12,967 nt of DNA, taken from UHGV virus genome UHGV-0805728, one strand, 5' to 3'. This document shows, piece by piece, positions 804 through 12,510 of the stretch. This DNA comes from a virus. Numbering within the stretch: the first letter of the stretch is position 1; each line of letters begins with the position of its first letter. A program made the translations under genes and the position numbers. A model generated the notes under the pieces. The model saw nothing but the letters and a program-made list of their open reading frames with translations. It made no database searches and was not told the origin of the DNA.

Positions 804-1163
804 CTACAGATGGTTGCTGAGGGTGTCAAGAAAATTATCCCGTTCTTTCTCAGAGTTTTCATGGGTGTAGCTGAAAAACATATCGAGAATAACCTTATTG
901 ATATATTCCAGCTCCTCTGTATTCAGATACTTATCAGGATCTACAATGACTTCCCAAATATCGTACAGACCGCACTCATGATATCCCCAACGCCACTCAA
1001 TTGTTAAACCGAGCGGCAAATCTTTACCGTCACAAACAACCTTCCATCTACAGATGTTGGTATCTGGACGCACCTGTGCACGGTATACCTGTACAAAATC
1101 CAATTTGAATTTGAGGTACTCGTCATACAATTTAAGTACAAAGCTCTCGATTTGTGGAGACAC
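804..1163 (-). CDS. hypothetical protein; probably the C-terminal part of a ~177-aa gene interrupted by a frame break (see 1223..1336)
   Basis: ORF-track 119 aa, but its start is a GTG at 1163 with no ribosome-binding site; its frame is open upstream to about 1247 and runs into the 37-aa ORF at an A5 run. Confidence 0.55.
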   Translation of the reverse strand: MSPQIESFVLKLYDEYLKFKLDFVQVYRAQVRPDTNICRWKVVCDGKDLPLGLTIEWRWGYHECGLYDIWEVIVDPDKYLNTEELEYINKVILDMFFSYTHENSEKERDNFLDTLSNHL

Positions 1164-1222
1164 TTTTGCAGCAAACTGTGCGTATTTGTACTTGCACTGG
1201 ATGATCTTTCTGCGTTTTGCAG

Positions 1223-1336
1223 TTAAATTTTTGCAGACAACTGTTCTTCAGTGTACCTCCACCTACGGTCAACAAACGCAACAGGGTCTTTGTCCCCATA
1301 GAGATCTTCCCAGTTAATCAGAAGCATACCTGTCAT
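1223..1336 (-). CDS. small ORF (37 aa), likely the N-terminal part of the frame-disrupted gene continuing in 804..1163
   Basis: ATG at 1336 overlaps the TGA of ORF 1333..1566 (ATGA); product MTGMLLINWEDLYGDKDPVAFVDRRWRYTEEQLSAKI; stop TAA at 1225-1223 immediately after an A5 run (1228-1232). Confidence 0.35.
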   Translation of the reverse strand: MTGMLLINWEDLYGDKDPVAFVDRRWRYTEEQLSAKI

Positions 1337-1566
1337 TCCTCCACAACTTCAAGGCCTTTACCGCCCCTCTCTGGAAGATTGCCGAGGGATAGGTAGTAAG
1401 TATAGTCTGGTGAGATTCTACCCGCTTGTGCCCCTGCAGCGATCAAATCTTTTCCAGTGATCATAACAACGTTTTTGTTTGCCGTCAACCGTTTTGCTAC
1501 TACAATTTTACCGACGCAATCGATCAGTGATGGATACCCTAAATCTGTAAGAAATTTAACTTTCAT
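1333..1566 (-). CDS. hypothetical protein (77 aa)
   Basis: ORF-track; ATG at 1566 preceded by AGGAGGTAG; no family recognised. Confidence 0.6.
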   Translation of the reverse strand: MKVKFLTDLGYPSLIDCVGKIVVAKRLTANKNVVMITGKDLIAAGAQAGRISPDYTYYLSLGNLPERGGKGLEVVEE

Positions 1567-1605
1567 GCTACCTCCTACTTCTACCGTCCCTGGTAAGATA
1601 AATTA

Positions 1606-2004
1606 TTACTGAACAGAACGCGGAGCTGGGAAGGATAACTCTTCTAAAGAGAAGATTTCATTTCCTACCACCCAAGTTGCTGGATCATCTGGATCAACAG
1701 GTTGGATAATCATTACCTCATCAACCTTGCACACACGTTTCCCACCTATGGTAGCGTCAGCCACTAACATACGCGGCTCTTCAGAAATGCACAGGTAGCC
1801 ACCTCGGCCCACTGTTCCTTCTACAGGATCCTGCCCTTTGACAACGATGAATACCTTTTCTCCTGTGGCGATATTACTTTGCACACGGACAGTTTGACCA
1901 ACTTTAGAGGTACCGATCTTGGTGGCTTCAAACATTAAATCCCGAATTACTGTTGCATAGTTGCCGGAAACTTTCTTACCTTCTTTGGTGATCTCAATCT
2001 TCAT
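1606..2004 (-). CDS. hypothetical protein (132 aa)
   Basis: ORF-track; start ATG at 2004 overlaps the stop of the upstream ORF (ATGA); no family recognised. Confidence 0.65.
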   Translation of the reverse strand: MKIEITKEGKKVSGNYATVIRDLMFEATKIGTSKVGQTVRVQSNIATGEKVFIVVKGQDPVEGTVGRGGYLCISEEPRMLVADATIGGKRVCKVDEVMIIQPVDPDDPATWVVGNEIFSLEELSFPAPRSVQ

Positions 2005-2273
2005 AATTTAGGCTCCTTAAATGAATCTATGTAGTCAATTAAATCCCAAGCATCGCGATGGGCTGTCAGAGGATATACTTCTCCGAGAGGGATCATAGCG
2101 GCAAGTCTATCAAAAACCCAGTCTGGACGCAACATTTTATGGTGATATTCCCACTCACCTTCTACAGACTTTTTCTGAGTGATCAGGATCTCTGTGTAGT
2201 GTTTAGCCTGTCTTGAGTAGATTGAAAATGACTTGTACATAAATGGCCCCTCTTGTTGAAAACAAGAATACAT
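2001..2273 (-). CDS. hypothetical protein (90 aa; alternative start ATG 2240 gives 79 aa)
   Basis: ORF-track; ATG at 2273 lies 2 nt after the TAG of the upstream ORF; the internal ATG at 2240 has the better ribosome-binding site (AGAGGGG, about 6 nt spacing). Confidence 0.55.
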   Translation of the reverse strand: MYSCFQQEGPFMYKSFSIYSRQAKHYTEILITQKKSVEGEWEYHHKMLRPDWVFDRLAAMIPLGEVYPLTAHRDAWDLIDYIDSFKEPKL

Positions 2274-2275
2274 AA

Positions 2276-2560
2276 CTACCAGGTCACTGTCAAGTAGGCA
2301 ACTGTGTTATTTTTCTCTGGCGATATGCCAACAACATCCACTTGCAGACCTCCTGCCCTTAAATCTCCGACAATGTGTGGGAAGTAATCCGAGAGGTGTG
2401 ATGGAAGATTTATCGAAAATCCGCACCCCAGAAAGCCTGCTAACGCTTTATTTTGTATCTCCCCTACAATCGCATCGTAAATAGAGTTAAGCTCGTCAGG
2501 AAGCGTTACAGGACGTTTTAGCGCTAACTGGTGTAATTTGTCCTTAGCACTCATTTTCAT
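2276..2560 (-). CDS. hypothetical protein (94 aa from ATG 2560; ORF track extends to a GTG at 2590)
   Basis: ATG 2560-2558 overlaps the TGA 2559-2557 of the methyltransferase gene (ATGA coupling); the GTG at 2590 would overlap that gene by 34 nt. Confidence 0.55.
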   Translation of the reverse strand: MKMSAKDKLHQLALKRPVTLPDELNSIYDAIVGEIQNKALAGFLGCGFSINLPSHLSDYFPHIVGDLRAGGLQVDVVGISPEKNNTVAYLTVTW

Positions 2561-3090
2561 TTCAGATCTACCTCTGGTGGTGCCAACCACATAAATGGCG
2601 GCAAATCTAAACGGTTTTTCTTATCCCACACAAAATATGCATATGCTTGCCCGTCAGTTCTGCCATTGGACTGGAATGATGGGCGCTTAGATATTGTAAT
2701 CACTGTGGTAGGGGCATTTTCAAGCCACCACTCAAAACGTGCTTTACTTTCCAAGAAGTTGAGACGCAAAAGCATAATAACTACGTCAGCATCTTTCAAC
2801 GCCTTTTCTACAAACTCACGGGCCAGGCTGTAGGGAGGGTTGGTTATAATGCAGTCAACATGGTTGTATTCTGTATTCAAGTAGTCCACACCTTCTTGAA
2901 TCTCTCCCCATGCAGATCCTAACGGCATACGGGAGTAGAATACCCCGTTAACACTGTTTCGGCACGGCTCCAGATAAGTCCAGTTCTCCGGGAAATCAAT
3001 TAAGTTGTATAGACCTTCTGCACACCAATCTGGTGTAACATACTCATCATAAGCATTACGTTGTTCGTCAGGTTTTCTAGCGCAAGTCAT
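2557..3090 (-). CDS. DNA N6-adenine methyltransferase, small phage Dam-like (177 aa)
   Basis: Catalytic motif IV DCIITNPPYS (NPPY, typical of N6-adenine methyltransferases) and size about 170-180 aa as in small phage Dam-like enzymes; ATG 3090 preceded by GGAGA. Target site not determinable. Confidence 0.6.
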   Translation of the reverse strand: MTCARKPDEQRNAYDEYVTPDWCAEGLYNLIDFPENWTYLEPCRNSVNGVFYSRMPLGSAWGEIQEGVDYLNTEYNHVDCIITNPPYSLAREFVEKALKDADVVIMLLRLNFLESKARFEWWLENAPTTVITISKRPSFQSNGRTDGQAYAYFVWDKKNRLDLPPFMWLAPPEVDLK

Positions 3091-3104
3091 GCAAATCTCC
3101 AGAT

Positions 3105-3130
3105 CATAAAAGCCCTCCGAAGAGGGCTTT
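3105..3130 (-). terminator. intrinsic-terminator-like hairpin with UUCG tetraloop between the ClpP-like gene and the methyltransferase gene
   Basis: Perfect 9-bp inverted repeat, plus strand aaagccctc (3109-3117) cgaa gagggcttt (3122-3130); as minus-strand RNA AAAGCCCUC-UUCG-GAGGGCUUU followed by UAUGAU. It sits 12 nt after the stop at 3142-3144. Confidence 0.45.
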
Positions 3131-3141
3131 AAGATTAATAT

Positions 3142-3855
3142 TTAAGCTTCTTCGACAATTCCTGCACCCAGGATTTTTTCATTAAGCTCTTTTGCGGTTT
3201 TAATAATATTATCCACCAGACGCTTACGGGTCTTGTCTTTCACCTGAACCTCTTCGCCACCGTTCAGAGTAGTCTTCAATTGAGACAGAATATCCTGAAG
3301 TTCAACGACAGAGAATCGCTGCAGATCTTCTGAGGTAATCTCGCCGAGAGCGATCCGGACGGTCTCACCACTTTCCATCTGCAGATTCAGGAACACGGTG
3401 TGAACATCATCTTTCACACCATTTGCTTTTGCAGACTCGACAGCATGAACCAGTTCGTCCAGGGAGGTGCACTGGTGAATCTCTGGCAGACCTGCTTCAC
3501 CTAGTACCCCTTCATCACCTTTTGCCAGGAGCTTTTTCGGTTTCTGCCCGTTCTGGATACGCTGAATATTTTCATCGTCCAGAATGATAGCTCCAGTTCT
3601 AGCTGCCAGCTCCTCTCCGTCCAACCACACTTCTCCACCAGCCGTGATGGATGCGATCTCATCTTCTGTCAGCACCCCACCGTAGATTTTTCGATCAGAC
3701 GTTCGAAACGTTTTTTCCAGTAGCTGACCTGAGTATTCATGTTCACACCGTTGCCATAAGTGCCACCTTGGTAGTAGTGGAACATAAATTCTGTGTCCGG
3801 AGCCACAGTGCGTTCTTTGCAACCCAGCCATAAGATTGTCCCAGCAGAGCAGCAC
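3142..3855 (-). CDS. ClpP-like peptidase, C-terminal fold continuation plus ~175-aa extension (second frame of a frame-disrupted gene)
   Basis: ORF-track 237 aa, but the first ~48 residues (MLLCWDNLMAGLQRTHCGSGHRIYVPLLPRWHLWQRCEHEY...) look out-of-frame. From about 3712 downward the frame reads ...GGVLTEDEIASITAGGEVWLDGEELAARTGAI, which aligns without gaps to the ClpP C-terminal region (recalled E. coli ...RDRFLSAPEAVEYGLVD) once joined to ORF 3669..4187. Confidence 0.5.
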   Translation of the reverse strand: MLLCWDNLMAGLQRTHCGSGHRIYVPLLPRWHLWQRCEHEYSGQLLEKTFRTSDRKIYGGVLTEDEIASITAGGEVWLDGEELAARTGAIILDDENIQRIQNGQKPKKLLAKGDEGVLGEAGLPEIHQCTSLDELVHAVESAKANGVKDDVHTVFLNLQMESGETVRIALGEITSEDLQRFSVVELQDILSQLKTTLNGGEEVQVKDKTRKRLVDNIIKTAKELNEKILGAGIVEEA

Positions 3856-4187
3856 ATCCCTTCAGCATGTACAACAACGCTTGCCTGAGACTCGCGGAAT
3901 GCCTGTAGATATGCCATTGCAATGTGCACGCAACCACCAGGGCTATTGATGATCACCCGAATGCTTTCTTCCGGCTGAGCCATACGGATCGTCTGCAGAC
4001 GAGACATATGATCTTGTAGGTCTTCCAAGTCGTCGATATAAAGAACGTGGTCAACAACAGGTGTTGGGTAGCTATATGTCTCCATAATACCACCTGGCAT
4101 ACCAAACATTTTATTACTCATCGGTTCGAAGCCGTTCTGTTTTTCTTTCATGCCGTGTACCATGGTGCTGCGAGGTGTTAAATTCAT
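3669..4187 (-). CDS. ClpP-family serine peptidase, N-terminal and catalytic portion (first frame of a frame-disrupted gene)
   Basis: ORF-track 172 aa with IINSPGG, GMCCSAGT (Ser-motif region) and FHYYQGG (His-motif region), collinear with E. coli ClpP INSPGG...GQAASMGA...IHQPLGG from memory; ATG 4187 preceded by TAAGGACC. The frame stops before the C-terminal part of the fold. Confidence 0.7.
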   Translation of the reverse strand: MNLTPRSTMVHGMKEKQNGFEPMSNKMFGMPGGIMETYSYPTPVVDHVLYIDDLEDLQDHMSRLQTIRMAQPEESIRVIINSPGGCVHIAMAYLQAFRESQASVVVHAEGMCCSAGTILWLGCKERTVAPDTEFMFHYYQGGTYGNGVNMNTQVSYWKKRFERLIEKSTVGC

Positions 4188-4248
4188 GTGAGGTCCTTAA
4201 TGTTGGAAAATTAAAAGCGATCTATTTAAACCTGATTCTCATTTGCCT

Positions 4249-4560
4249 TTATTTGGCAATTACCATGGAATACTTGCGATTGTCAGAAGCATCACAGGTC
4301 AACGATTGCCAGTCTACCACATACCACGTGTCATTGTCAACAATTACTTTATCACCTGTTCTGTAAAAGGTGTTGCTTTCAATAACACGAGACTCAGTGA
4401 AGAATCGGTGTCTTCGCTCACGTAGTAGAGCCAAGTTGATTATATTACCACCGCTGTCCTTAATCCACACATTCTTGTATCCTTTATTTGCCAAAATTGT
4501 CTCGCCGTTATAGACAAACAGGCAGTAGATTTTATTCAATCTCTCTTGTATCGTAGCCAT
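4249..4560 (-). CDS. hypothetical protein (103 aa)
   Basis: ORF-track; ATG 4560 preceded by GAGGAGAAG and by a near-consensus promoter (4589-4617). Confidence 0.65.
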   Translation of the reverse strand: MATIQERLNKIYCLFVYNGETILANKGYKNVWIKDSGGNIINLALLRERRHRFFTESRVIESNTFYRTGDKVIVDNDTWYVVDWQSLTCDASDNRKYSMVIAK

Positions 4561-4588
4561 ACTGTTCTTCTCCTCGTTTTGTCAGGCA

Positions 4589-4617
4589 ATAATACCTAAA
4601 GCTTGTCTGTTTGTCAA
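4589..4617 (-). promoter_or_regulatory. sigma70-type (phage early-like) promoter P1: -35 TTGACA, 17-nt spacer, -10 TATTAT
   Basis: Minus strand reads TTGACA (4617-4612), aacagacaagctttagg, TATTAT (4594-4589); predicted transcription start about 4582, some 22 nt upstream of ATG 4560. Confidence 0.55.
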
Positions 4618-4635
4618 CAAGTGTTTTAGATATTC

Positions 4636-4656
4636 AAGGGTGGAATAACCACCCTT
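4636..4656 (-). other. RNA hairpin directly after the phoH stop codon (8-bp stem AAGGGTGG/CCACCCTT, 5-nt loop)
   Basis: Perfect inverted repeat, plus strand 4636-4643 and 4649-4656, 5 nt after the TAA at 4664-4662; no U-tract follows, so terminator function is uncertain. Confidence 0.35.
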
Positions 4657-4661
4657 ATATG

Positions 4662-5450
4662 TTACTCGGAAACAGGAGTCCAAATACGGTTTGCACGGTC
4701 CTCAATAAGATTGAGTGCAATCTGACGACCCAGCCCAGAACGAACAACATCGTCAGGACTATCAAAGCTAATCATCCCAACTTCAGGATCTGGATGTCGT
4801 GTAAAGAAATCTGTCACCCATGCAAGGCCAGATTTACCAGGGATGTCTCGTTGGCTATTGTCCCCCATAATTACAAGGGTGGCCTGATCGGAAATCCTTG
4901 TGATAATTGACAACATTTCTTCAGGGTTAGTTTGCTGTGCCTCGTCAATTAGGACAAAGCATCGTTCATCGAAACTACGACCACGAATGCTTTCAACTTC
5001 ACAAATCTCGATACGGCTGTTCTGACCGTCTCCCAGCATTGCTGCAAAAGCACCTTTGCCAACACGACGACAAATCGTGTCCATCATACTCCGAAGATAG
5101 GGCCACAGTTTCTGCATTGCATTCCCTGGTTTAAATCCTGAAGTCTTTCCTGTCTGAACGTAAGGGCGTGCAACAATGATCTTATCAATCTCGTTTTTAC
5201 GTAACAGATCTCCTGCATAGGCAGATGCCATAAATGTCTTACCAGACCCAAACACACCGTTTACGATAATAATCTTACGTGACCCTAAATAATCAAGATA
5301 CTTTTGCTGCTTCTTATTCATCGGTCGGAGAGCTGGAGCGGTGTGCTCTCGTTCGTCAGCAAATTTCTCAGCAGCTTTACGCAAACGATCAGATTTACGA
5401 GCCTCTCTGGCTTCATCACGCATGCGTTTTGTTTCTTTAGCTCGACCCAT
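4662..5450 (-). CDS. phoH: PhoH-like ATPase (262 aa) with a ~43-aa charged N-terminal extension
   Basis: Walker A GVFGSGKT, Walker B FVLIDEAQ, and GDNSQRD, typical of PhoH-family proteins; ATG 5450 preceded by AAAGGAG. Confidence 0.9.
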   Translation of the reverse strand: MGRAKETKRMRDEAREARKSDRLRKAAEKFADEREHTAPALRPMNKKQQKYLDYLGSRKIIIVNGVFGSGKTFMASAYAGDLLRKNEIDKIIVARPYVQTGKTSGFKPGNAMQKLWPYLRSMMDTICRRVGKGAFAAMLGDGQNSRIEICEVESIRGRSFDERCFVLIDEAQQTNPEEMLSIITRISDQATLVIMGDNSQRDIPGKSGLAWVTDFFTRHPDPEVGMISFDSPDDVVRSGLGRQIALNLIEDRANRIWTPVSE

Positions 5451-5488
5451 GGTGGGACTCCTTTCAGATTGAGATGTGTCTGGAACTT

Positions 5489-5839
5489 TTACTGCAACAG
5501 TTTTTCAATAGCCGCTTCCATGCTGCTTGCAACAGCCTGAACTCGGATATTCATCTCTTCTTGGTGGATCAGCTCCTTAAGCTCTTTAACGGTAAATTCC
5601 TTAGAGAAACCTTCCACCATAATATTGTGTAAGGCTTCTTGCGTGTCTACTTGCAAGAACTTCTCCAGTTTGTTGGCAGAGGCTTCTAAATCAGCCCGAA
5701 TACGAGGATCATCTGTGCGATTCAGCATTAGGCGCAAGCCATCGAGATTAGTAGAAATAGCGTCAGCATGTTGAGTAACTAGCCGTGGCAAAATGAGATC
5801 TACAAACTTATTAGCCAAATCAATACGTTCTTGTGTCAC
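5489..5839 (-). CDS. hypothetical protein (116 aa), predicted helical
   Basis: ORF-track; GTG start at 5839 preceded by GAGGGGG and overlapping the TGA of the 37-aa Lys-rich ORF (GTGA). Confidence 0.6.
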   Translation of the reverse strand: MTQERIDLANKFVDLILPRLVTQHADAISTNLDGLRLMLNRTDDPRIRADLEASANKLEKFLQVDTQEALHNIMVEGFSKEFTVKELKELIHQEEMNIRVQAVASSMEAAIEKLLQ

Positions 5840-5949
5840 TGTTGCACCCCCTCTTCGTCCTCATGATGTTTCTTTTCACGCTTGTGTTTTTTCTTAAGCT
5901 CAAGCGCAATCTCTTTTTTGTACGCCTTCTTCAAGGCCTTTTTAGCCAT
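5836..5949 (-). CDS. small Lys-rich basic peptide (37 aa)
   Basis: ATG at 5949 preceded by AGAGGGGG and by consensus promoter P2; product MAKKALKKAYKKEIALELKKKHKREKKHHEDEEGVQQ. Not in ORF track (under 60 aa). Confidence 0.4.
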   Translation of the reverse strand: MAKKALKKAYKKEIALELKKKHKREKKHHEDEEGVQQ

Positions 5950-5980
5950 TTGGCACCCCCTCTGCTTTCATTTTACGATA

Positions 5981-6010
5981 ATTATACCCGTCTAAACAAA
6001 GCTTTGTCAA
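5981..6010 (-). promoter_or_regulatory. sigma70-type (phage early-like) promoter P2: -35 TTGACA, 18-nt spacer, -10 TATAAT
   Basis: Minus strand reads TTGACA (6010-6005), aagctttgtttagacggg, TATAAT (5986-5981), starting 4 nt after the nrdG stop; predicted transcription start about 5974, upstream of ATG 5949. Confidence 0.6.
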
Positions 6011-6013
6011 CAA

Positions 6014-6487
6014 TTAGTCTACCTGAACCCACCCACCTGCTACTTTTTTAAACATTCTTTGGTTATCGCTTCCTCGGAACGGTTTCTTGGTTGGCAAATC
6101 TTTTATATACTTACCATCAATGATGATATCAGCCAGTTTAAGAACATCACTAGAGATATGGTCAAATGTGAACCCAGTATACACAAGAATAGTTTTCTTG
6201 TCACCAAATTTTTCCTTAATTTTCTCCATCAGGCCAATAATACCTGGCTCATTATAGTATGCCAAGGGTTCTCCACCCAGCAGAGAGATACCGCACACAG
6301 ACGGGTTGTCCAAATCTGACAAGATTTTTTGCAAGTCTTCCTCGGTGAACTCTCTCCCCTTATCTTTTGACCAAAATGCCTGATTAAAGCAACCAGGGCA
6401 AGCGTGTGGGCACCCAGATACCCACAAGGCAGTTCTAATACCTGGCCCTTCGGTGTAAGATATTTCTGTGTATCCGGCAATGTTCAT
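6014..6487 (-). CDS. nrdG: anaerobic ribonucleotide reductase activating protein (radical-SAM activase), 157 aa from ATG 6487
   Basis: Cys cluster GCPHACPGCFN characteristic of NrdG-type activases; the ATG at 6487 has an ACGGAG ribosome-binding site and an ATGA overlap with the upstream small ORF. The ORF-track start at 6505 has no ribosome-binding site. Confidence 0.85.
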   Translation of the reverse strand: MNIAGYTEISYTEGPGIRTALWVSGCPHACPGCFNQAFWSKDKGREFTEEDLQKILSDLDNPSVCGISLLGGEPLAYYNEPGIIGLMEKIKEKFGDKKTILVYTGFTFDHISSDVLKLADIIIDGKYIKDLPTKKPFRGSDNQRMFKKVAGGWVQVD

Positions 6488-6600
6488 AGATACTCCGTAC
6501 CACATTCAGGGCAATACCAAATAAAATCATCCAGCGCCTTGCACCAACGAAGATTACAATGACAACCGCACTTGCAAATTTTATAAATACCTGTAGACAT
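6484..6600 (-). CDS. small Cys-rich zinc-ribbon-like protein (38 aa)
   Basis: ATG 6600 preceded by GAGG at about 8 nt; product MSTGIYKICKCGCHCNLRWCKALDDFIWYCPECGTEYL with 7 Cys (CKCGCHC...CPEC); stop overlaps the nrdG ATG (ATGA). Not in ORF track (under 60 aa). Confidence 0.4.
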   Translation of the reverse strand: MSTGIYKICKCGCHCNLRWCKALDDFIWYCPECGTEYL

Positions 6601-6630
6601 ACTGCACCTCATAGTTCACTGTGTATCAAC

Positions 6631-6660
6631 AATATGCCACATCCTTGTGACTTTTGTCAA
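6631..6660 (-). promoter_or_regulatory. candidate sigma70-type promoter P3 (perfect -35 TTGACA, weak -10 CATATT or TATTGT)
   Basis: TTGACA at 6660-6655 begins 3 nt after the nrdD stop, as in P1 and P2; the -10 element is only a 4/6 match. Confidence 0.3.
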
Positions 6661-6663
6661 GCA

Positions 6664-6903
6664 TCAGCAACCACAACTTCCATAGTGCTTAACTCGCTCG
6701 ATAACTTCAGCTTGCTTGCCTCTATTGTAAGGACGTGAGTTAGGACTGGAAAGGTATCCAGACACACGTCGAATTACACTGATCGTTCCCTCTTCGTGGT
6801 TTCCACAGTCTGGACATACAAAGCCTTTAGCTGTCGCGCTGAACTCACCAGAGAAACCACACTTGAGACATTTATCCACGGGCTGGTTAATACCAAAATA
6901 CAT
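6664..6903 (-). CDS. nrdD: anaerobic ribonucleotide reductase NrdD, C-terminal glycyl-radical/zinc-ribbon segment (third frame piece)
   Basis: YFGINQPVDKCLKCGFSGEF...CPDCGNH...RRVSGYL matches the recalled E. coli NrdD C-terminus (YMGINVPVDRCFECGFTGEF...CPKCGNH...RRVCGYLG); its frame is open only from 6909 and overlaps the central ORF. Confidence 0.8.
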   Translation of the reverse strand: MYFGINQPVDKCLKCGFSGEFSATAKGFVCPDCGNHEEGTISVIRRVSGYLSSPNSRPYNRGKQAEVIERVKHYGSCGC

Positions 6904-8555
6904 AATGTGTTATACCCGAAGTCAACAAGAGCCTCTAAAGCATCCAGGTTGTTTTTCAGGTTAGGTGTCTCTATGTATCCAATGTTGCCACCAGAGGAGA
7001 TCATAGCAAAACCTTCTTCATACTTCCACTTATCAAAAGGTGAACTATTGATCCATACTGGTTGGTGGAAACTGTTGGTGATATATTCATGCTCGTGCTT
7101 CAATACCTCAGGATATTCACGATCCAGACAGGTTGCAGCTTTGTAGCATAAGCTTTCAGAAGGGGTGCCGTACAAGCTGAATGCTAGACCACTTTCCTTT
7201 TTGTACCGATCACAAGCATCTTTCATGTGCTGAAGGATTCCAAGAGCTAAAGCCTTGTCTCCCTCTCTCCCCAAAATCTGACAGGTTTCATACACACCAA
7301 TATACCCAATACTGATGGAAGCGTACCCGTCATAGAAGAGTTTATCAATACTCTCTTCAGGATCCAAGCGAGCAAGAGCGCCTTCACACCACATGATGGG
7401 GTTCTGACCTGCCTTTGTCCCTTTTAGGCGGTTAACCCTTACAAGGTGAGCTTCATATGCCAAATCCAGATACTCGTCAAGAACGGTAAAGAAGTCAACA
7501 CCTTCTGTTTTAGCTTTTGCTGCAATCATTGGTAGGTTGAGGCTAACAACACCCAAGTTGAATCTGCCGAGGTATTTCTCCTCACCTGTTTCTAAGTCAT
7601 TGTATTTGCTAAGAAAACTCCGGCAACCCATGCTCGTTACTTTGCCATCTGTAGAACCTGTCACCTTACGATTTAGCGGAACAGAAACAAAGTCAGGATA
7701 AATTCGCTCTGCAGAGCATTCCAGAGCTAATCGTTTCAAATCATAGTTAGGATCCTCAGGGTTCATGTTGACACCCTCTTCTAAGAAGAACAGCACTTTA
7801 GGGAACACAGGTGTGATCCGTTCTTCACCAAGACCCATTTTGTGGACTTTCAGGTAGTTTTTGGTAATCATTCTACCAAATACCGAGGTATCAAGTCCTA
7901 AACTTAATGTTATGAACGGAGTTTGCCCGTTGACAGAAGTTAATGTGTTGATTTGATAAAGCAACGTCTGCATACTGTCAAACACGTCTTTATCGGTCAT
8001 CTGCATTGCAACGCCTTCAGCATCCGGCAACCAATGCTCCTGACAAAATTTAAGGTTCTTCTCATAGGTAGCTTCAGCATACTGTGCCAGATAATGATCA
8101 ATATGGCTCATAGTCTGACCACCATATTGAGCACTAGCCACTGCACTAGAGATTTGGCTAAGGATTGTTGTTGCAACCCCTATTGACTTAGGCTTGCTGA
8201 CATGGGCGTTACCAATGTTGAATCCGTTTTCCAGCATATCTGGATAATTTACCAAACAACAGTTTGTTAGAGGGCTGATCAGATAGTCAAGATCATGTAC
8301 ATGGATGAAGCCTTTTATTGTGCTCTTCGGAGACACGGTCTGGCAGGATCTGTGTTGATGCAAGGTGTTTGCTAAGGATGCCTGCAAGCAGGTCACGATG
8401 AGTGTGTACATGATTGGTAGGCTTATTTGCGTTTTCTTTTGTAAATTCATCACAAGTGCGATCCAAGAAGCCACTAATATCTGCAAGAAGTTTTCCACCT
8501 GCCTCTCTGTTATTATCCCTTGTCTGTCTGTATTGGATGTATTCTCTGGCTGCAC
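6774..8555 (-). CDS. nrdD: anaerobic ribonucleotide reductase NrdD, central catalytic segment (second frame piece)
   Basis: From about 8315 the frame reads KGFIHVHDLDY...NIGNAHVSKPKSIG...QYGGQT, collinear with recalled E. coli NrdD (GDIHYHDLDY...MGNAEIEPPKSIS...IYGGTT). The first ~80 and last ~43 residues of the 593-aa ORF look out-of-frame. Confidence 0.85.
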   Translation of the reverse strand: MQPENTSNTDRQGIITERQVENFLQILVASWIALVMNLQKKTQISLPIMYTLIVTCLQASLANTLHQHRSCQTVSPKSTIKGFIHVHDLDYLISPLTNCCLVNYPDMLENGFNIGNAHVSKPKSIGVATTILSQISSAVASAQYGGQTMSHIDHYLAQYAEATYEKNLKFCQEHWLPDAEGVAMQMTDKDVFDSMQTLLYQINTLTSVNGQTPFITLSLGLDTSVFGRMITKNYLKVHKMGLGEERITPVFPKVLFFLEEGVNMNPEDPNYDLKRLALECSAERIYPDFVSVPLNRKVTGSTDGKVTSMGCRSFLSKYNDLETGEEKYLGRFNLGVVSLNLPMIAAKAKTEGVDFFTVLDEYLDLAYEAHLVRVNRLKGTKAGQNPIMWCEGALARLDPEESIDKLFYDGYASISIGYIGVYETCQILGREGDKALALGILQHMKDACDRYKKESGLAFSLYGTPSESLCYKAATCLDREYPEVLKHEHEYITNSFHQPVWINSSPFDKWKYEEGFAMISSGGNIGYIETPNLKNNLDALEALVDFGYNTLCILVLTSPWINVSSVVSLVSSARQLKALYVQTVETTKRERSV

Positions 8556-8787
8556 ATTTTAAACCCATATCCATAAGAGCATCTTCAACAAGGATATGGA
8601 TATTTTTTACAGAGATTGTGCCCTGATCGGCTGGTAGATTGTTAGCAACAGCTTCATTAACCGCGCAGGCGATCCGGTAAGCTTCTTCTTCAGTATGTCC
8701 AGACTCAAGTAAGGCGGACTCTGCCGCCTTGATCACCTTAATTCCGTTATAGACCTCTTCTCTACCGTCTCGTTTTACAACTTTCAC
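8293..8787 (-). CDS. nrdD: anaerobic ribonucleotide reductase NrdD, N-terminal ATP-cone segment (first frame piece)
   Basis: MKVVKRDGREEVY... and ENANKPTNHVHTHRDLLAGILSKH match the NrdD N-terminus (recalled E. coli NENANKDSKVIPTQRDLLAGIVAKH); ATG 8787 overlaps the nrdC stop (ATGA); frame ends at 8293 right after an A4 run. Confidence 0.8.
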   Translation of the reverse strand: MKVVKRDGREEVYNGIKVIKAAESALLESGHTEEEAYRIACAVNEAVANNLPADQGTISVKNIHILVEDALMDMGLKCAAREYIQYRQTRDNNREAGGKLLADISGFLDRTCDEFTKENANKPTNHVHTHRDLLAGILSKHLASTQILPDRVSEEHNKRLHPCT

Positions 8788-9062
8788 TTTTTCTCTCCAA
8801 AATTGTTCTTAACAAAAGAGATGAAATCGTCAGCACCACCAATGTGGACACTGTCAAGGTCGCTTTCTAAGAAGATTTGAGGTAACGTTCTGGGAACAAT
8901 TGGGCTACACTTCTTAATAAGCTCTTCTTTTGTATAGCCCTCCCCTAGCGTCTTGTATACAAAAGGTAGACCTTTACTGACTGCAAATTCTTTTGCTCTT
9001 ACACAATGTGGACAATTATCCTTACCGTAAATAATGATGAAAAAAGATTTTTCACAACTCAT
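8784..9062 (-). CDS. nrdC: glutaredoxin-like redoxin (92 aa)
   Basis: CPHC active-site motif near the N-terminus, TLPQIF (cis-Pro region) and HIGGADDF (GG motif), positioned between nrdB and nrdD. Confidence 0.8.
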   Translation of the reverse strand: MSCEKSFFIIIYGKDNCPHCVRAKEFAVSKGLPFVYKTLGEGYTKEELIKKCSPIVPRTLPQIFLESDLDSVHIGGADDFISFVKNNFGEKK

Positions 9063-9065
9063 ATA

Positions 9066-10154
9066 TTAAAACTCCCAAATTTCTTCTTCAGCGTCGTTAA
9101 CAGTTGTGTTGACGCGGTAGTCAGTGTTCGACATTTCTTGGTTCGCCGTCTGTTGCAATGAAGGTTTCATCCACACCTGCATAAACGGTAGCGGGTCCTT
9201 TGTTGGCGGCACAAAGTCTTTGTCGATGTCGTAGTAATCATAAATCGGTGAGCAGTTATAGTCAACCCATTCTTTAAGCAACGGTGAGTTAAGACCTATA
9301 ATCGCTCTTCCTTCGCTGAAAATATAGTCACTCCAACCGTACTCCTTGGTTCGTACTTCATCAAGAATCTCTTTTAACTCTCCCTTTATCTCAAGGAAGC
9401 TTTTCTCCCATGCTGGATCATTAAGCAGGATATCAATGATGGCAAAATCACCTTTCGAATGCAGCATTTCGTCAAGCATGATTTTTTGAACAAGCTGCGC
9501 CACCTGAACAAAAATACCCTGTTCAGCTACTGCGAAAGTGCATGCAAAACTTGCAATAAACTCAATACTCTCCAGAGCTAAAAGTGCAAAAAGCGCTCTA
9601 AGAATGCATTTCCGTACAATATCTTCTTCAACACTGGAAGGATCCAGTCGGTATTTTGCACCAATAACCTCAAGCTCTTGCATATATTTGACAATAACCC
9701 CAGATCTGCTTAGCACGTTCTGGTTTTCCTGAATTTCTTCTATGATCTCGCGAGCATTAGGTAGGCACTGTCTAACAATCTCTGAGTAAGTAAGTGCGTG
9801 AAGAACTTCAATCTCCGACTGCTTCATCAACAGAGCGAAAAGCTCACTATTAGTGATGAATGGTGAAAAGAGGCAGATGATTGATCTTGCCGCAACGCTA
9901 TCAGCCTCCCATTGCCACATCAAGGTCTGCACCATCACGTCATAAGTTGACTTTGAGCATGTTACAAAATCTGAAATAGATTGCGACAAATCCACTTCAT
10001 CCTCTGCCCAATCCTGTTCTTTTTGTTTTTTATACAGTTCAAACAGTTGTGGGTATTTTTTATTGATAGAGTCATACATCCCCATTTGCTGTCCAAGAAA
10101 CAGAGGATAGTCACCAGTTTTATGAGCGGTGTTCTCAGCATTAAATACAGCCAT
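9066..10154 (-). CDS. nrdB: ribonucleotide reductase class Ia small (beta) subunit (362 aa)
   Basis: Full-length collinearity with E. coli NrdB from memory, including ESIEFIASFACTFAVAE (iron-ligand region; E. coli EAIRFYVSFACSFAFAE) and the acidic C-terminal tail ...EEEIWEF; ATG 10154 preceded by AGAGG. Confidence 0.9.
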   Translation of the reverse strand: MAVFNAENTAHKTGDYPLFLGQQMGMYDSINKKYPQLFELYKKQKEQDWAEDEVDLSQSISDFVTCSKSTYDVMVQTLMWQWEADSVAARSIICLFSPFITNSELFALLMKQSEIEVLHALTYSEIVRQCLPNAREIIEEIQENQNVLSRSGVIVKYMQELEVIGAKYRLDPSSVEEDIVRKCILRALFALLALESIEFIASFACTFAVAEQGIFVQVAQLVQKIMLDEMLHSKGDFAIIDILLNDPAWEKSFLEIKGELKEILDEVRTKEYGWSDYIFSEGRAIIGLNSPLLKEWVDYNCSPIYDYYDIDKDFVPPTKDPLPFMQVWMKPSLQQTANQEMSNTDYRVNTTVNDAEEEIWEF

Positions 10155-10165
10155 TATTCTACCTC

Positions 10166-10186
10166 TAAAATGGGGCCGAAGCCCCC
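10166..10186 (-). terminator. GC hairpin with UUCG tetraloop plus U4 tract between nrdA and nrdB (terminator or attenuator-like)
   Basis: Plus strand ggggc (10172-10176) cgaa gcccc (10181-10185); as minus-strand RNA GGGGC-UUCG-GCCCC followed by AUUUUAG, ending about 12 nt before the nrdB ATG. Confidence 0.4.
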
Positions 10187-10193
10187 TTTAAAA

Positions 10194-11507
10194 TTACAGT
10201 GCACAACTTTCGCAGTATGGATCTTCAACTGAACTATCTGCGATCAAAGGATAGTTCTTTCTGGTTTCATCTTCAGCCTGTTTCTTGGCATGAAGTTCCT
10301 CTGCCAGTGAGTCACCAGCACCAACCCTAGAGTTTAAATAATACCATGTCTTCATCCCGAATTTAGTGGCACGGATAAGGTACCCTAGTTGCTCCTTCAT
10401 TGAAATTTTACCATCTTTCAACTTGGTGTAATCTATGTATAAATCAGCGCTGATTGCCTGACCTGTGAATTTTTGAATCACGGCATACATATCGATCATG
10501 TCGTTGGTATCAACGTCCCAAGCCGAAGTGTAATACTCTTTCAACTCATCGTATTCAGGAACGATAAACAGCACCTGCCCTTGTGGAGACTTTTTAAAGA
10601 TAATGTGCTCACGGACAGGATAAACCCCGTTAGTGGTGTTTGTTGCCAGCGAAGAGCTTTCATTAGGCATATATGCTTCAAGAACGCTATTACGTAGCCC
10701 ACCATTTTCAATGATTTGTTTACGTAACCCTTCCCAATCCTGTTTAAGAGAAGGATCTTTCACCACACTGTCGACCTCTTTGTTATAGGTGTCGATTGGT
10801 AACCAACCCTCCGGGTATTTTGTTTTATGCATCCACTCACAGACACCACGCTCTTTTGCCAATCGTAAACTTGCTTTGTGCAAGCTGTAGCTGTGAAGCT
10901 CTGCAAGATCATGGACAAGCTGTTTACTTTCCGGAGATCCGTAAGTAACCTTGTGGCTGGCAATAAAATGTGCAACATTGGTAAGGCCAACCCCGATAGA
11001 TCTGCGTTTTTTAACCGTGCTCTCCATATTCTCATACGGATATGTCATGATTTCCATAACATTGTCAATCATAAGCACCGTGTAGTATGCAACATCTTCA
11101 TACTCCTCTGGGGTAACCCTCCCAGCTACAAGAGATGATAGGAAGCACAATGCAACCTCACCATCATCAGCATCGTACTTGAAGATATTACGCATATCTG
11201 AATAGCCTTTTGTCGGAAGGGCTATCTCGGCACACAGGTTGCTTGAATAGATTACATCTTTAAAAGGTGTATGTCTATTCATCTCGTCTGTCCAGTATAC
11301 GTACAGTCTTCCTACCTCAGTACGCTGCGTGATAAGTTCAGCAGCAAGATCTCTAGCACGGATCCATGTTTTAGGAATACTGTCATCTTTAGCGATCCGA
11401 TCAACCTCTGCATCAAACTCTTCCATAGACATGGTGAAGATGCCTTCATGTAGCTGAGGTGCGTGCTTATAAGAAACAAGCATCCAATCTAAATTTTTAG
11501 TCCACAC
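10194..11507 (-). CDS. nrdA: ribonucleotide reductase class Ia large (alpha) subunit, C-terminal catalytic segment (second frame piece)
   Basis: 437-aa ORF with SNLCAEIALPT (active-site Cys loop; recalled E. coli SNLCLEIALPT) and collinear downstream sequence; its GTG at 11507 has no ribosome-binding site. Confidence 0.9.
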   Translation of the reverse strand: MWTKNLDWMLVSYKHAPQLHEGIFTMSMEEFDAEVDRIAKDDSIPKTWIRARDLAAELITQRTEVGRLYVYWTDEMNRHTPFKDVIYSSNLCAEIALPTKGYSDMRNIFKYDADDGEVALCFLSSLVAGRVTPEEYEDVAYYTVLMIDNVMEIMTYPYENMESTVKKRRSIGVGLTNVAHFIASHKVTYGSPESKQLVHDLAELHSYSLHKASLRLAKERGVCEWMHKTKYPEGWLPIDTYNKEVDSVVKDPSLKQDWEGLRKQIIENGGLRNSVLEAYMPNESSSLATNTTNGVYPVREHIIFKKSPQGQVLFIVPEYDELKEYYTSAWDVDTNDMIDMYAVIQKFTGQAISADLYIDYTKLKDGKISMKEQLGYLIRATKFGMKTWYYLNSRVGAGDSLAEELHAKKQAEDETRKNYPLIADSSVEDPYCESCAL

Positions 11508-12510
11508 GGTTGATAAACGACCTATTAATACCTATGGAATAATCCATAGTGTTGATTCTTTTTGAAGCAACAGTCATAGGGTTTCTCAAACGGATTAGCT
11601 CATCAATCTGAGGGTCCAGTGCAAGGAATGACACTGTTGCCGAACCACCACGGGATTGTTGTCTATTCTCCTTAACCCCGGCATCAATACCACGATAATA
11701 TGGAAGCTTGCCCATATGTTTAATCGTGTTACCACGAACACCATCGCCTGCAGATCTTGACGATAAATAGTAGCCAATACCTGCTTGGTTAACCGTCATT
11801 GTGTACGCAACTTCCCGTGCCACACCAATAGACTTTGCTGTATCGTCAGCTTTTATTACGCAACAAGATGCATACCCTGTCTTACCTGTGCGTAGACCGT
11901 TTAAGTACGGTGTCGGAGCATTGATCTTTAAGTCTGACAGATAAGTGTATAATTTTACAACATCGTTAATACGGCGTTCTTTCGGCATATTCTTCATGAC
12001 AGCCATCGCTATCCCCATAAACATCATCTGGGGAGATTCAAACAGGGTGTCTTTAAGAGTATCCTTGATCCCGTATTTGTCACGAAACTGTTTAAGGACT
12101 GCATAGCCATAACCGAGATCTTTACTGTGATCAATAACAGTATTTAAAGTGTTTAACTCAGTAAAGCTATAACCCATATCCTCCCAATACCCTTTCTCAA
12201 CCATGGTATTGTAGAATGAGGGTAAGGAAGGGATCTTTGTAAATCCTCCAAAAGCCTCTTTGTAGATCTGACCAATAAGAACACGACCAGCCATACGGGA
12301 ATGTGCTTCGTCTTTACGGCTAACACATGAATCTATAATAGCCTGGTTAACTTCTTTGGTTGTGCATCCATCATACAGACGTTTGTATGCATCCATTGCA
12401 ATATGTGACCAATTGCCGTTACCGTCGTCACCGAAAATAGCTGCCTTATTTAAACGTTCTGGATCGAATTCAACTTCACATCCGTTACTTTTAATTACTT
12501 TGGTGATCAA
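11497..12510 (-). CDS. nrdA: ribonucleotide reductase class Ia large (alpha) subunit, N-terminal segment with ATP cone (first frame piece)
   Basis: 337-aa ORF starting MITKVIKSNGCEVEFDPERL (ATP-cone-like) and ending at ...INTMDYSIGINRSFINRVD (recalled E. coli ...RHMDYGVQINKLMYTRL); TTG start at 12510 preceded by GGAGGAAG at 7 nt spacing. Confidence 0.9.
   Translation of the reverse strand: MITKVIKSNGCEVEFDPERLNKAAIFGDDGNGNWSHIAMDAYKRLYDGCTTKEVNQAIIDSCVSRKDEAHSRMAGRVLIGQIYKEAFGGFTKIPSLPSFYNTMVEKGYWEDMGYSFTELNTLNTVIDHSKDLGYGYAVLKQFRDKYGIKDTLKDTLFESPQMMFMGIAMAVMKNMPKERRINDVVKLYTYLSDLKINAPTPYLNGLRTGKTGYASCCVIKADDTAKSIGVAREVAYTMTVNQAGIGYYLSSRSAGDGVRGNTIKHMGKLPYYRGIDAGVKENRQQSRGGSATVSFLALDPQIDELIRLRNPMTVASKRINTMDYSIGINRSFINRVD

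What the first reader, a model, noticed from the sequence alone, without database searches (positions are those of the whole stretch)
1220..1250. ORFan apparently split by a -1 frame change at an A5 run (37-aa ORF plus 119-aa ORF)
ORF 804..1163 starts at a GTG with no ribosome-binding site, and its frame is open upstream to about 1247. A 37-aa ORF (1223..1336) is ATGA-coupled to the gene above and stops right after the AAAAA run at 1228-1232. One extra A joins them into a ~177-aa protein reading ...RWRYTEEQLSAKNLTAKRRKIIQCKYKYAQFAAKVSPQIESF....
Basis: seen in the sequence. Interest (0 to 1): 0.5.

Follow-up and report, generated by a model that had tools for sequence, protein, structure and literature searches.

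The report
One-base sequencing gap splits phage gene
The two small ORFs are one conserved 174-177-aa gene of rV5-like E. coli phages, split in this record by a missing A in an A6 run; this is almost certainly a sequencing or assembly error, so the finding is ordinary.

Summary
ORF 1223..1336 (37 aa), the A5 run at 1228..1232 and ORF 804..1163 (119 aa, GTG, frame open back to 1247) are all there, and one extra A fuses them.

It is not an ORFan. The window is a Vequintavirus (rV5-like coliphage). More than 100 phage genomes carry the orthologue as one 174-177-aa CDS. The repaired protein matches PHROG 13467 end to end (E = 2.7e-108). Homologues at 50%, 46% and 29% identity read straight through the junction.

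92 of 93 phage records have A6. The window also has four other private single-T indels, in or within 2 nt of T runs. They break a ClpP-like protease, NrdD (twice) and NrdA.

A public contig with 8 substitutions over the whole window has all of these genes intact. A second contig has 0 substitutions over 10.3 kb, intact ClpP-like and NrdD genes, and ends exactly at the A run and at the NrdA indel site.

No slippery heptamer, downstream RNA structure or conservation supports recoding. Verdict: a homopolymer-associated sequencing or assembly error. A real, very recent or sub-population mutation is much less likely. The protein's function remains unknown.

The parts
804..1327 (-). Whole gene: orthologue of the 174-aa Vequintavirus protein (PHROG 13467; for example APCEc02_098, CPT_Murica116, nimi_39, bas48_0171). 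In this record it is interrupted by a 1-nt deletion.
   Evidence: Searches show a single 525-nt CDS at the syntenic position in relatives. One search gives a full-length PHROG match for the repaired translation. One search shows that repair gives one 177-aa ORF.
1228..1232 (-). A5 run (T5 on the + strand). It is A6 in 92 of 93 phage records and in all 17 relatives' loci where the run was read or aligned. This is the site of the missing base.
1223..1336 (-). N-terminal fragment ORF: 37 aa from the ATG at 1336, or 34 aa from the more likely start ATG at 1327. It ends at TAA 1225-1223, created by the frame change.
804..1247 (-). C-terminal part of the gene in the -1 frame. It is open from 1247, and the conserved sequence NLTAKRRKII... 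starts right after the run. The mechanical ORF call (GTG at 1163, 119 aa) is not a real start.
1337..1342 (-). GGAGGA Shine-Dalgarno motif, followed by a 9-nt spacer before the ATG at 1327 (the probable true start).
   Evidence: an RBS is annotated at the equivalent place in Murica.
3685..3686 (+). Second private indel of the record. A T is missing (GTAG[T]ATTTTT), which splits the 348-aa ClpP-like protease into 172-aa and 237-aa ORFs.
6909..6911 (+). Third private indel (TTT to TT), inside nrdD.
8313..8316 (+). Fourth private indel (TTT to TTTT), inside nrdD. Together with the indel at 6910 it cuts the 707-aa NrdD into 164-, 593- and 79-aa ORFs.
11501..11501 (+). Fifth private indel. An extra T sits 2 nt after a T5 run (TTTTTAG[T]CC) and splits the 771-aa NrdA into 337-aa and 437-aa ORFs.

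Best explanation
The window comes from an rV5-like coliphage (Vequintavirus). Positions 804..1327 (minus strand) are a single conserved accessory gene of unknown function, 174 aa from the likely start and 177 aa from the upstream ATG. In this record one A of an A6 homopolymer is missing, so the reading frame hits TAA two codons later and the remaining 140 codons sit in the -1 frame.

The missing base is most likely a homopolymer-associated sequencing or consensus error in the source assembly. In the real phage the gene would then be intact and translated normally as one protein, with no frameshifting or re-initiation.

Shown: the one-gene architecture, A6 in relatives, and the other four indels in the same record. 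Inferred: that the base is missing from the record and not from the phage. The raw reads could not be inspected.
For: **One gene, not two**
- A single 525-nt CDS sits at the syntenic position in APECc02, Murica, nimi, rV5_ev147 and CarlMeissner. Aya, which is unannotated, has a 177-aa ORF there.
- All public contigs examined call a single gene of 172-178 aa at that position.
- The repaired protein matches PHROG 13467 over profile positions 1-174 of 174, E = 2.7e-108, in one stretch.
- Homologues at 95%, 50%, 46% and 29% identity are single proteins of 168-174 aa aligned across the junction.
- The AlphaFold model puts the junction inside one long helix (residues 27-54, pLDDT 80-90).

**A6 is the norm**
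- Four-way DNA alignment.
- All 60 evenly sampled rows of 105 records show the relative one base longer than the query; one row also carries a 3-nt deletion.
- 92 of 93 records match only from query base 3 of an A5-specific 31-mer, as expected for A6.
- The run was found as A6 in 12 loci by pattern search. L008 was not caught by that pattern but shows the same 1-nt gap in pairwise alignment.

**The record as a whole carries indel errors**
- There are five window-private 1-nt indels (1228, 3686, 6910, 8313, 11501). All are T on the + strand, all lie in or within 2 nt of a T run of 3 or more, and all fall inside conserved CDSs. The chance expectation for that context is 0.164 per site.
- In contrast, every indel that separates the relatives from one another is intergenic, a multiple of 3, or lies at the extreme 3' end of a small ORF.
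- Repairing the five sites restores full-length ORFs for all four genes. These correspond to the 174/177-, 348-, 707- and 771-aa proteins annotated in relatives.

**Near-identical genomes are intact**
- Logan contig ERR11010907_5777 covers the whole window with 8 substitutions plus exactly these 5 indels.
- Logan contig ERR975171_38 has 0 substitutions over 10,273 nt and intact ClpP-like and NrdD genes. Its two ends fall exactly at the A run (it ends ...GTCTGCAAAAA) and at the 11501 site, as expected if the assembly graph branches there.
- That contig carries its own T-run indel at window position 2619, which suggests the read set itself is prone to homopolymer indels.

**Selection**
- Substitutions on the window's lineage are 104 synonymous to 13 non-synonymous overall, and 11 to 3 in this gene. 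The frame was therefore under selection until essentially the present.

**Independent recurrence**
- The only other A5 record, vB_Eco_Alma (92-94% identical), shares none of the other four indels. It has many private indels and split genes of its own.
Against: - The raw reads behind the window were not available, so a true 1-nt deletion in the phage stock cannot be formally excluded.
- The contig breaks in ERR975171 at 1228 and 11501 could equally mean a real mixed population at those two sites.
- Two of the five indels (3686 and 11501) are next to a homopolymer and not inside one, which is less typical of simple homopolymer miscounting.
- That all five involve T on the same strand is not explained in detail, because the sequencing platform is unknown.
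- NrdA, NrdD and many accessory genes can be dispensable in the laboratory, so their loss would not necessarily be lethal.
Confidence: 0.86

Rival explanations
1. Genuine, very recent frameshift mutation. The phage stock, or a sizeable sub-population of it, really carries A5, so this accessory gene is a fresh pseudogene. At most a 34-aa N-terminal peptide is made, plus traces of full-length protein from spontaneous slippage.
For: - The gene has unknown function and sits among small accessory genes, so it is plausibly dispensable.
- Homopolymers are natural hotspots for replication slippage.
- The Logan contig of ERR975171 ends exactly at the run, which is compatible with two alleles in the reads.
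- One other record (Alma) also shows A5.
- A distant homologue, P0007, is frameshifted next to the same spot.
Against: - The same record has four more private frameshifts, in ClpP-like, NrdD (two) and NrdA. It shows 0 substitutions against a 10.3-kb public contig and 8 against a contig covering the whole window. Five indels against 0-8 substitutions is not a natural mutation spectrum.
- There is no decay downstream: the substitution ratio is 11 synonymous to 3 non-synonymous, and the frame is open to the normal stop.
- Alma is itself full of private indels.
Confidence: 0.11
2. Programmed recoding. The full-length protein is made from the A5 sequence by -1 ribosomal frameshifting, or by transcriptional slippage, at the A run. 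This would give a short product and a long product from one locus.
For: - The geometry fits: the downstream frame is -1.
- tRNA-Lys on AAA could re-pair on the overlapping AAA (A_AAA).
- A stop codon follows closely.
Against: - The two-frame arrangement is not conserved; 92 of 93 relatives are in frame with A6. At the Lys codon of the run, the 50% and 46% homologues have Met and the 29% homologue has an alignment gap, so the run is not conserved.
- GCA AAA ATT is not a canonical X XXY YYZ heptamer (read from the sequence).
- The 111 nt downstream have no unusual structure (z = -0.24).
- From general knowledge, five A residues are too few for efficient transcriptional slippage.
- The four other frameshifts in the record have no such context.
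Confidence: 0.02
3. Two independent genes: a 37-aa peptide gene and a separate 119-aa gene with its own start.
For: Both exist as mechanical ORFs.
Against: - There is no RBS before the GTG at 1163.
- The family sequence NLTAKRRKIIQCKYKYAQFAAK is encoded upstream of that GTG, in the same frame.
- No public assembly has a gene with the 119-aa product.
- All homologues are single proteins.
- The junction lies inside a predicted helix.
Confidence: 0.01

Closest known systems
PHROG 13467 / Vequintavirus hypothetical protein (for example APCEc02_098 AKO61852.1, Murica gp116 AKU44208.1, nimi_39 QHR73065.1; BASEL bas48_0171, labelled 'putative glycosidase')
   Same: - Same genomic position, between the 77-aa and 78-aa genes and downstream of the methyltransferase and ClpP-like genes.
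- 95% protein identity after repair.
- Full-length profile match, including the conserved GYHECGLY motif.
   Different: - In this record the ORF is interrupted by a missing A (A5 instead of A6).
- The 'glycosidase' label found no support here: no Pfam hit, no PDB sequence hit, and no significant fold match.
Homopolymer-associated indel errors in phage genome assemblies (typical of flow-based and long-read platforms)
   Same: - Single-base gain or loss in or next to runs of one base.
- Private to one record.
- Several conserved genes broken in the same contig.
- Near-identical genomes are intact.
- The same run is miscalled independently in another error-rich record (vB_Eco_Alma).
   Different: - The platform of the source record is unknown.
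- Two of the five indels lie 1-2 nt outside the run.
- All five affect T on one strand.
Programmed -1 ribosomal frameshifting (dnaX A AAA AAG; phage tail assembly chaperone G/GT)
   Same: - An A-rich site, with the downstream frame at -1.
- A short upstream product that ends soon after the site.
   Different: - No canonical heptamer and no stimulatory structure.
- No conservation of the frame arrangement; relatives are simply in frame.

Membership tests
PHROG 13467 (Vequintavirus 174-aa protein of unknown function) | Full-length, significant match to the family profile | tested here: met
   E = 2.7e-108, profile positions 1-174 of 174, one stretch (repaired translation); 95% identity to P0001.
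PHROG 13467 (Vequintavirus 174-aa protein of unknown function) | Conserved gene neighbourhood (synteny) | tested here: met
   the same order everywhere, methyltransferase, 94 aa, 79 aa, 132 aa, 77 aa, this gene, 78 aa.
PHROG 13467 (Vequintavirus 174-aa protein of unknown function) | Encoded as one uninterrupted ORF | tested here: not met
   the ORF is split at the A5 run in the window as given. It is met after adding one A. The gene is homologous, but the record is frameshifted.
Sequencing/assembly indel artefact | The variant is private to the record while near-identical genomes carry the intact allele | tested here: met
   L028 has 8 substitutions in 12,967 nt and has A6; the 99.3-99.5% identical L010 and L012 have A6.
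Sequencing/assembly indel artefact | The same record carries further frameshifting indels in conserved or important genes, associated with homopolymers | tested here: met
   four more 1-nt T indels in ClpP-like, nrdD (two) and nrdA, all in or within 2 nt of T runs.
Sequencing/assembly indel artefact | Raw reads do not support the consensus base count | not testable with these tools
   Only indirect evidence is available. An independent Logan assembly of ERR975171, with 0 substitutions against the window, ends exactly at the run and at site 11501 and has the intact allele at the other three sites.
Programmed -1 ribosomal frameshift site | Canonical slippery heptamer X XXY YYZ in the zero frame | tested here: not met
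   the zero-frame codons are GCA AAA ATT, giving the heptamer A AAA ATT. Only P-site A_AAA re-pairing is possible.
Programmed -1 ribosomal frameshift site | Downstream stimulatory RNA structure | tested here: not met
   MFE -19.1 kcal/mol against a shuffle mean of -18.3, z = -0.24.
Programmed -1 ribosomal frameshift site | The two-frame arrangement is conserved in relatives | tested here: not met
   relatives are in frame (A6); distant homologues lack the run.
Transcriptional slippage / phase-variable homopolymer (contingency locus) | A long run (typically 8 or more) whose length varies among isolates | tested here: not met
   The run is 5-6 nt. 92 of 93 records have A6, and the single other A5 record is an error-rich assembly.

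The most novel reading that the evidence does not exclude
The A5/A6 difference is real heterogeneity inside the phage population, as the contig breaks at 1228 and 11501 in ERR975171 might suggest. In that reading, a short homopolymer acts as a mutational on/off switch for a conserved accessory gene of rV5-like phages, perhaps with a little full-length protein rescued by A_AAA slippage.
Probability: 0.04. Interest if true: 0.35.

Novelty: not a real feature. Interest (0 to 1): 0.06.

Why it matters
It matters mainly as quality control. This 13-kb stretch carries five frameshifting single-base errors, so an automatic annotation of the record would report about ten spurious short or 'ORFan' genes: two pieces of this gene, two of the ClpP-like protease, three of NrdD and two of NrdA. 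The record should be polished or flagged.

Biologically, the gene is an ordinary conserved Vequintavirus accessory gene of unknown function. The 'putative glycosidase' label that circulates in some annotations found no support here.

Tried and rejected
- **IMG/VR pattern scan.** An exact-pattern scan allowing A5 or A6 found nothing, so that collection could not be used.
- **Source record.** A look-up of the exact 119-aa product in public assemblies found no such gene. The window's own record was therefore not located.
- **Literature.** Searches for ERR975171 and vB_Eco_Alma returned nothing, so the sequencing platform stays unknown.
- **Function of the protein.**
  - Pfam gave no hit.
  - A PDB profile search gave nothing below E = 0.1.
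  - The exhaustive representative search found only 5 hits. Two are full-length distant homologues (47% and 28% identity to the query) and three are fragments.
  - The AlphaFold model has modest confidence (pLDDT 63.5, pTM 0.60). The BFVD fold search had no match at E of 0.001 or better; the best were uncharacterised proteins of phages Mydo and 4MG.
  - So there is no functional assignment, and the 'glycosidase' label is unsupported.
- **Alternative readings.** Programmed frameshifting, transcriptional slippage, two independent genes and a phase-variable locus were considered and rejected; see the rival explanations and membership tests.
- **Structure input.** It was rerun with database homologues only.

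Full report
**1. The observation**

All genes in the window lie on the minus strand.

- A 37-aa ORF at 1223..1336 has an ATG that overlaps the TGA of the upstream 77-aa ORF (1333..1566).
- An A5 run lies at 1232-1228 and is followed by ATT TAA.
- A 119-aa ORF at 804..1163 begins at a GTG with no Shine-Dalgarno motif. Its frame is open upstream to 1247 (TGA at 1250-1248).
- The downstream frame is -1 relative to the upstream one. One additional A yields a 177-aa protein reading ...EEQLSAKNLTAKRRKIIQCKYKYAQFAAKVSPQIESF...

**2. What the locus is**

The window is a Vequintavirus, an rV5-like Escherichia coli myovirus.

- Megablast of 700-2100 finds 119 phage records. The best is Vequintavirinae sp. 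Aya at 97.4%, and most others are near 91%.
- The whole window matches Aya at 98.0% and about 110 others at about 93%.
- In annotated relatives the syntenic position holds one 525-nt CDS of 174 aa. Examples are APCEc02_098, CPT_Murica116, nimi_39, VUF54338 and bas48_0171.
- The unannotated Aya has an uninterrupted 177-aa ORF there.

The repaired window protein matches PHROG 13467 (unknown function) over the entire 174-position profile in one stretch, E = 2.7e-108. Pfam has nothing.

Database searches find a 95%-identical 174-aa cluster (P0001; 239 member sequences) and a 50%-identical 172-aa protein. The exhaustive representative search adds two more full-length proteins, which align to P0001 at 46% and 29% identity. 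All four align through the junction as single polypeptides. At the Lys codon of the run, the 50% and 46% homologues have Met and the 29% homologue has an alignment gap, so the A run itself is not conserved.

So the gene is not an ORFan, and the ancestral and prevailing state is one gene.

The likely true start is the ATG at 1327.

- GGAGGA (1342-1337) is followed by a 9-nt spacer before it.
- It is the start annotated in relatives.
- PHROG profile position 1 aligns to that methionine.
- The upstream ATG is a GTG in APECc02 and Murica.

**3. The A run in relatives**

- The four-way DNA alignment shows one gap column: window A5, the others A6.
- With a 111-nt query across the site, all 60 evenly sampled rows of 105 records span 112 nt. 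One spans 109 nt, which is A6 plus an in-frame 3-nt deletion.
- With an A5-specific 31-mer, 92 of 93 records align only from base 3, as expected for A6. One record, OV101294 vB_Eco_Alma, matches in full.
- A pattern search read the run as A6 in 12 fetched loci. L008 was missed by the pattern but shows the same 1-nt gap in alignment.

**4. Artefact or biology**

I aligned the whole window to Aya, nimi and rV5_ev147 and inspected the sites. The window has five private single-base indels. All are T on the + strand.

| Site | Change | Gene affected |
|---|---|---|
| 1228 | T6 to T5 | this gene |
| 3686 | T lost in GTAG[T]ATTTTT | ClpP-like protease |
| 6910 | TTT to TT | nrdD |
| 8313 | TTT to TTTT | nrdD |
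| 11501 | T gained in TTTTTAG[T]CC | nrdA |

- Effect on ORFs: the ClpP-like gene is split into 172 and 237 aa, nrdD into 164, 593 and 79 aa, and nrdA into 337 and 437 aa.
- Context: all five lie in or within 2 nt of a T run of 3 or more, a context that covers only 16% of the window.
- Contrast with natural indels: the indels that distinguish the relatives from each other are intergenic, multiples of three, or at the extreme 3' end of a small ORF.
- Repair: fixing the five sites restores full-length ORFs for all four genes. These correspond to the 174/177-, 348-, 707- and 771-aa proteins of relatives.
- Selection: substitutions on the window's lineage are 104 synonymous to 13 non-synonymous overall and 11 to 3 in this gene. 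The correct frames were under selection up to the present.

**5. Near-identical public assemblies**

Exact-protein look-ups using the intact neighbouring genes retrieved independent contigs. Every one calls a single gene of 172-178 aa here.

- L012 and L010 are 99.5% and 99.3% identical to the window. Over the 4.5 kb compared, they differ in gaps only at 1228 and 3686.
- L028 (Logan ERR11010907_5777) covers the whole window with 8 substitutions and exactly the five indels.
- L030 (Logan ERR975171_38, 10,273 nt) has 0 substitutions and intact ClpP-like and NrdD genes. It spans window 1228..11500. It ends '...GTCTGCAAAAA', in the run, and begins immediately after the extra base at 11501.

De Bruijn graph contigs stop where the graph branches. 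This therefore looks like read-level ambiguity at those two sites in a read set from the same, or an indistinguishable, phage. That contig also has its own T-run indel at window position 2619, which truncates the methyltransferase to 160 aa. This again suggests a read set prone to homopolymer indels.

Five indels against 0-8 substitutions is not a natural mutation spectrum.

**6. The other A5 record**

vB_Eco_Alma is only 92-94% identical to the window and shares none of the other four indels. It has many private single-base indels of its own, including one more inside this gene. Its annotation shows nrdB and other genes split. It is an independent miscall of the same run in another error-rich assembly.

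**7. Recoding**

- The zero-frame context GCA AAA ATT is not an X XXY YYZ heptamer.
- The 111 nt downstream fold no better than shuffles (z = -0.24).
- Five A residues are too few for efficient transcriptional slippage (general knowledge).
- The two-frame layout is absent from relatives.

Recoding is rejected.

**8. Function of the protein**

The function is unknown.

- The BASEL records label the gene 'putative glycosidase'. I found no Pfam hit and no PDB sequence match below E = 0.1.
- The AlphaFold model built from four sequences has modest confidence (pLDDT 63.5, pTM 0.60). Only the N-terminal about 70 residues are confident.
- In that model a long helix, residues 27-54, runs across the junction at about residue 34. 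This again argues for a single protein.
- The BFVD fold search gave nothing at E of 0.001 or better. The best hits were uncharacterised proteins of phages Mydo and 4MG.

**9. Verdict**

The 'ORFan' label is wrong. The split is best explained as a sequencing or assembly error (confidence 0.86). A real, recent or sub-population deletion gets 0.11. Recoding gets 0.02 and two independent genes 0.01. Interest is low, and the practical consequence is that the source record needs polishing.

Noticed in passing
window 3686; 6910; 8313; 11501: Four further private single-T indels break the ClpP-like protease (172 + 237 aa instead of 348), NrdD (164 + 593 + 79 aa instead of 707) and NrdA (337 + 437 aa instead of 771). 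Repairing them restores full-length ORFs.
   Followed up: yes
L030 (Logan ERR975171_38), equivalent to window 1228..11500: This 10,273-nt public contig has 0 substitutions against the window. Its two ends coincide exactly with two of the window's indel sites. It has its own T-run indel at window position 2619, which truncates the methyltransferase to 160 aa. It is probably the same phage, and the read set looks prone to homopolymer indels.
   Followed up: partly
L033 (OV101294.1 vB_Eco_Alma), locus 11904-11934 and the whole 24-kb stretch: This is the only other phage record with A5 at this run. It also has many private single-base indels and split genes: nrdB is annotated as two CDSs, there is an extra T at the equivalent of window position 1118, and only the C-terminal 94 aa of this gene is annotated.
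   Followed up: partly
L014, L019, L020, L022 (nrdD region); window 6664..8787: In several relatives nrdD is interrupted by one or two HNH homing-endonuclease genes. The window, nimi and rV5_ev147 have an uninterrupted nrdD.
   Followed up: no
GenBank MG0656xx records: About 18-20 records named 'Campylobacter phage', with Campylobacter jejuni given as host, are 91-93% identical to this E. coli Vequintavirus. The host labels look doubtful.
   Followed up: no
window 804..1327 (orthologues such as MZ501054 bas48_0171): The BASEL phage records annotate this gene as 'putative glycosidase'. Pfam, a PDB profile search and a BFVD fold search gave no support for any enzymatic assignment.
   Followed up: yes
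window 1325..1342: The ATGA-overlapping ATG at 1336 directly abuts the GGAGGA motif and is a GTG in some relatives. The ATG at 1327, with a 9-nt spacer, is the likely real start, which makes the protein 174 aa.
   Followed up: yes
P0007 (51 aa; 53% identity to P0001 over its first 43 residues): A homologue from public data is frameshifted immediately after ...AAKNL, next to the same A/T-rich AAAAAATTTAA spot. The site may be generally prone to indels or miscalls.
   Followed up: no
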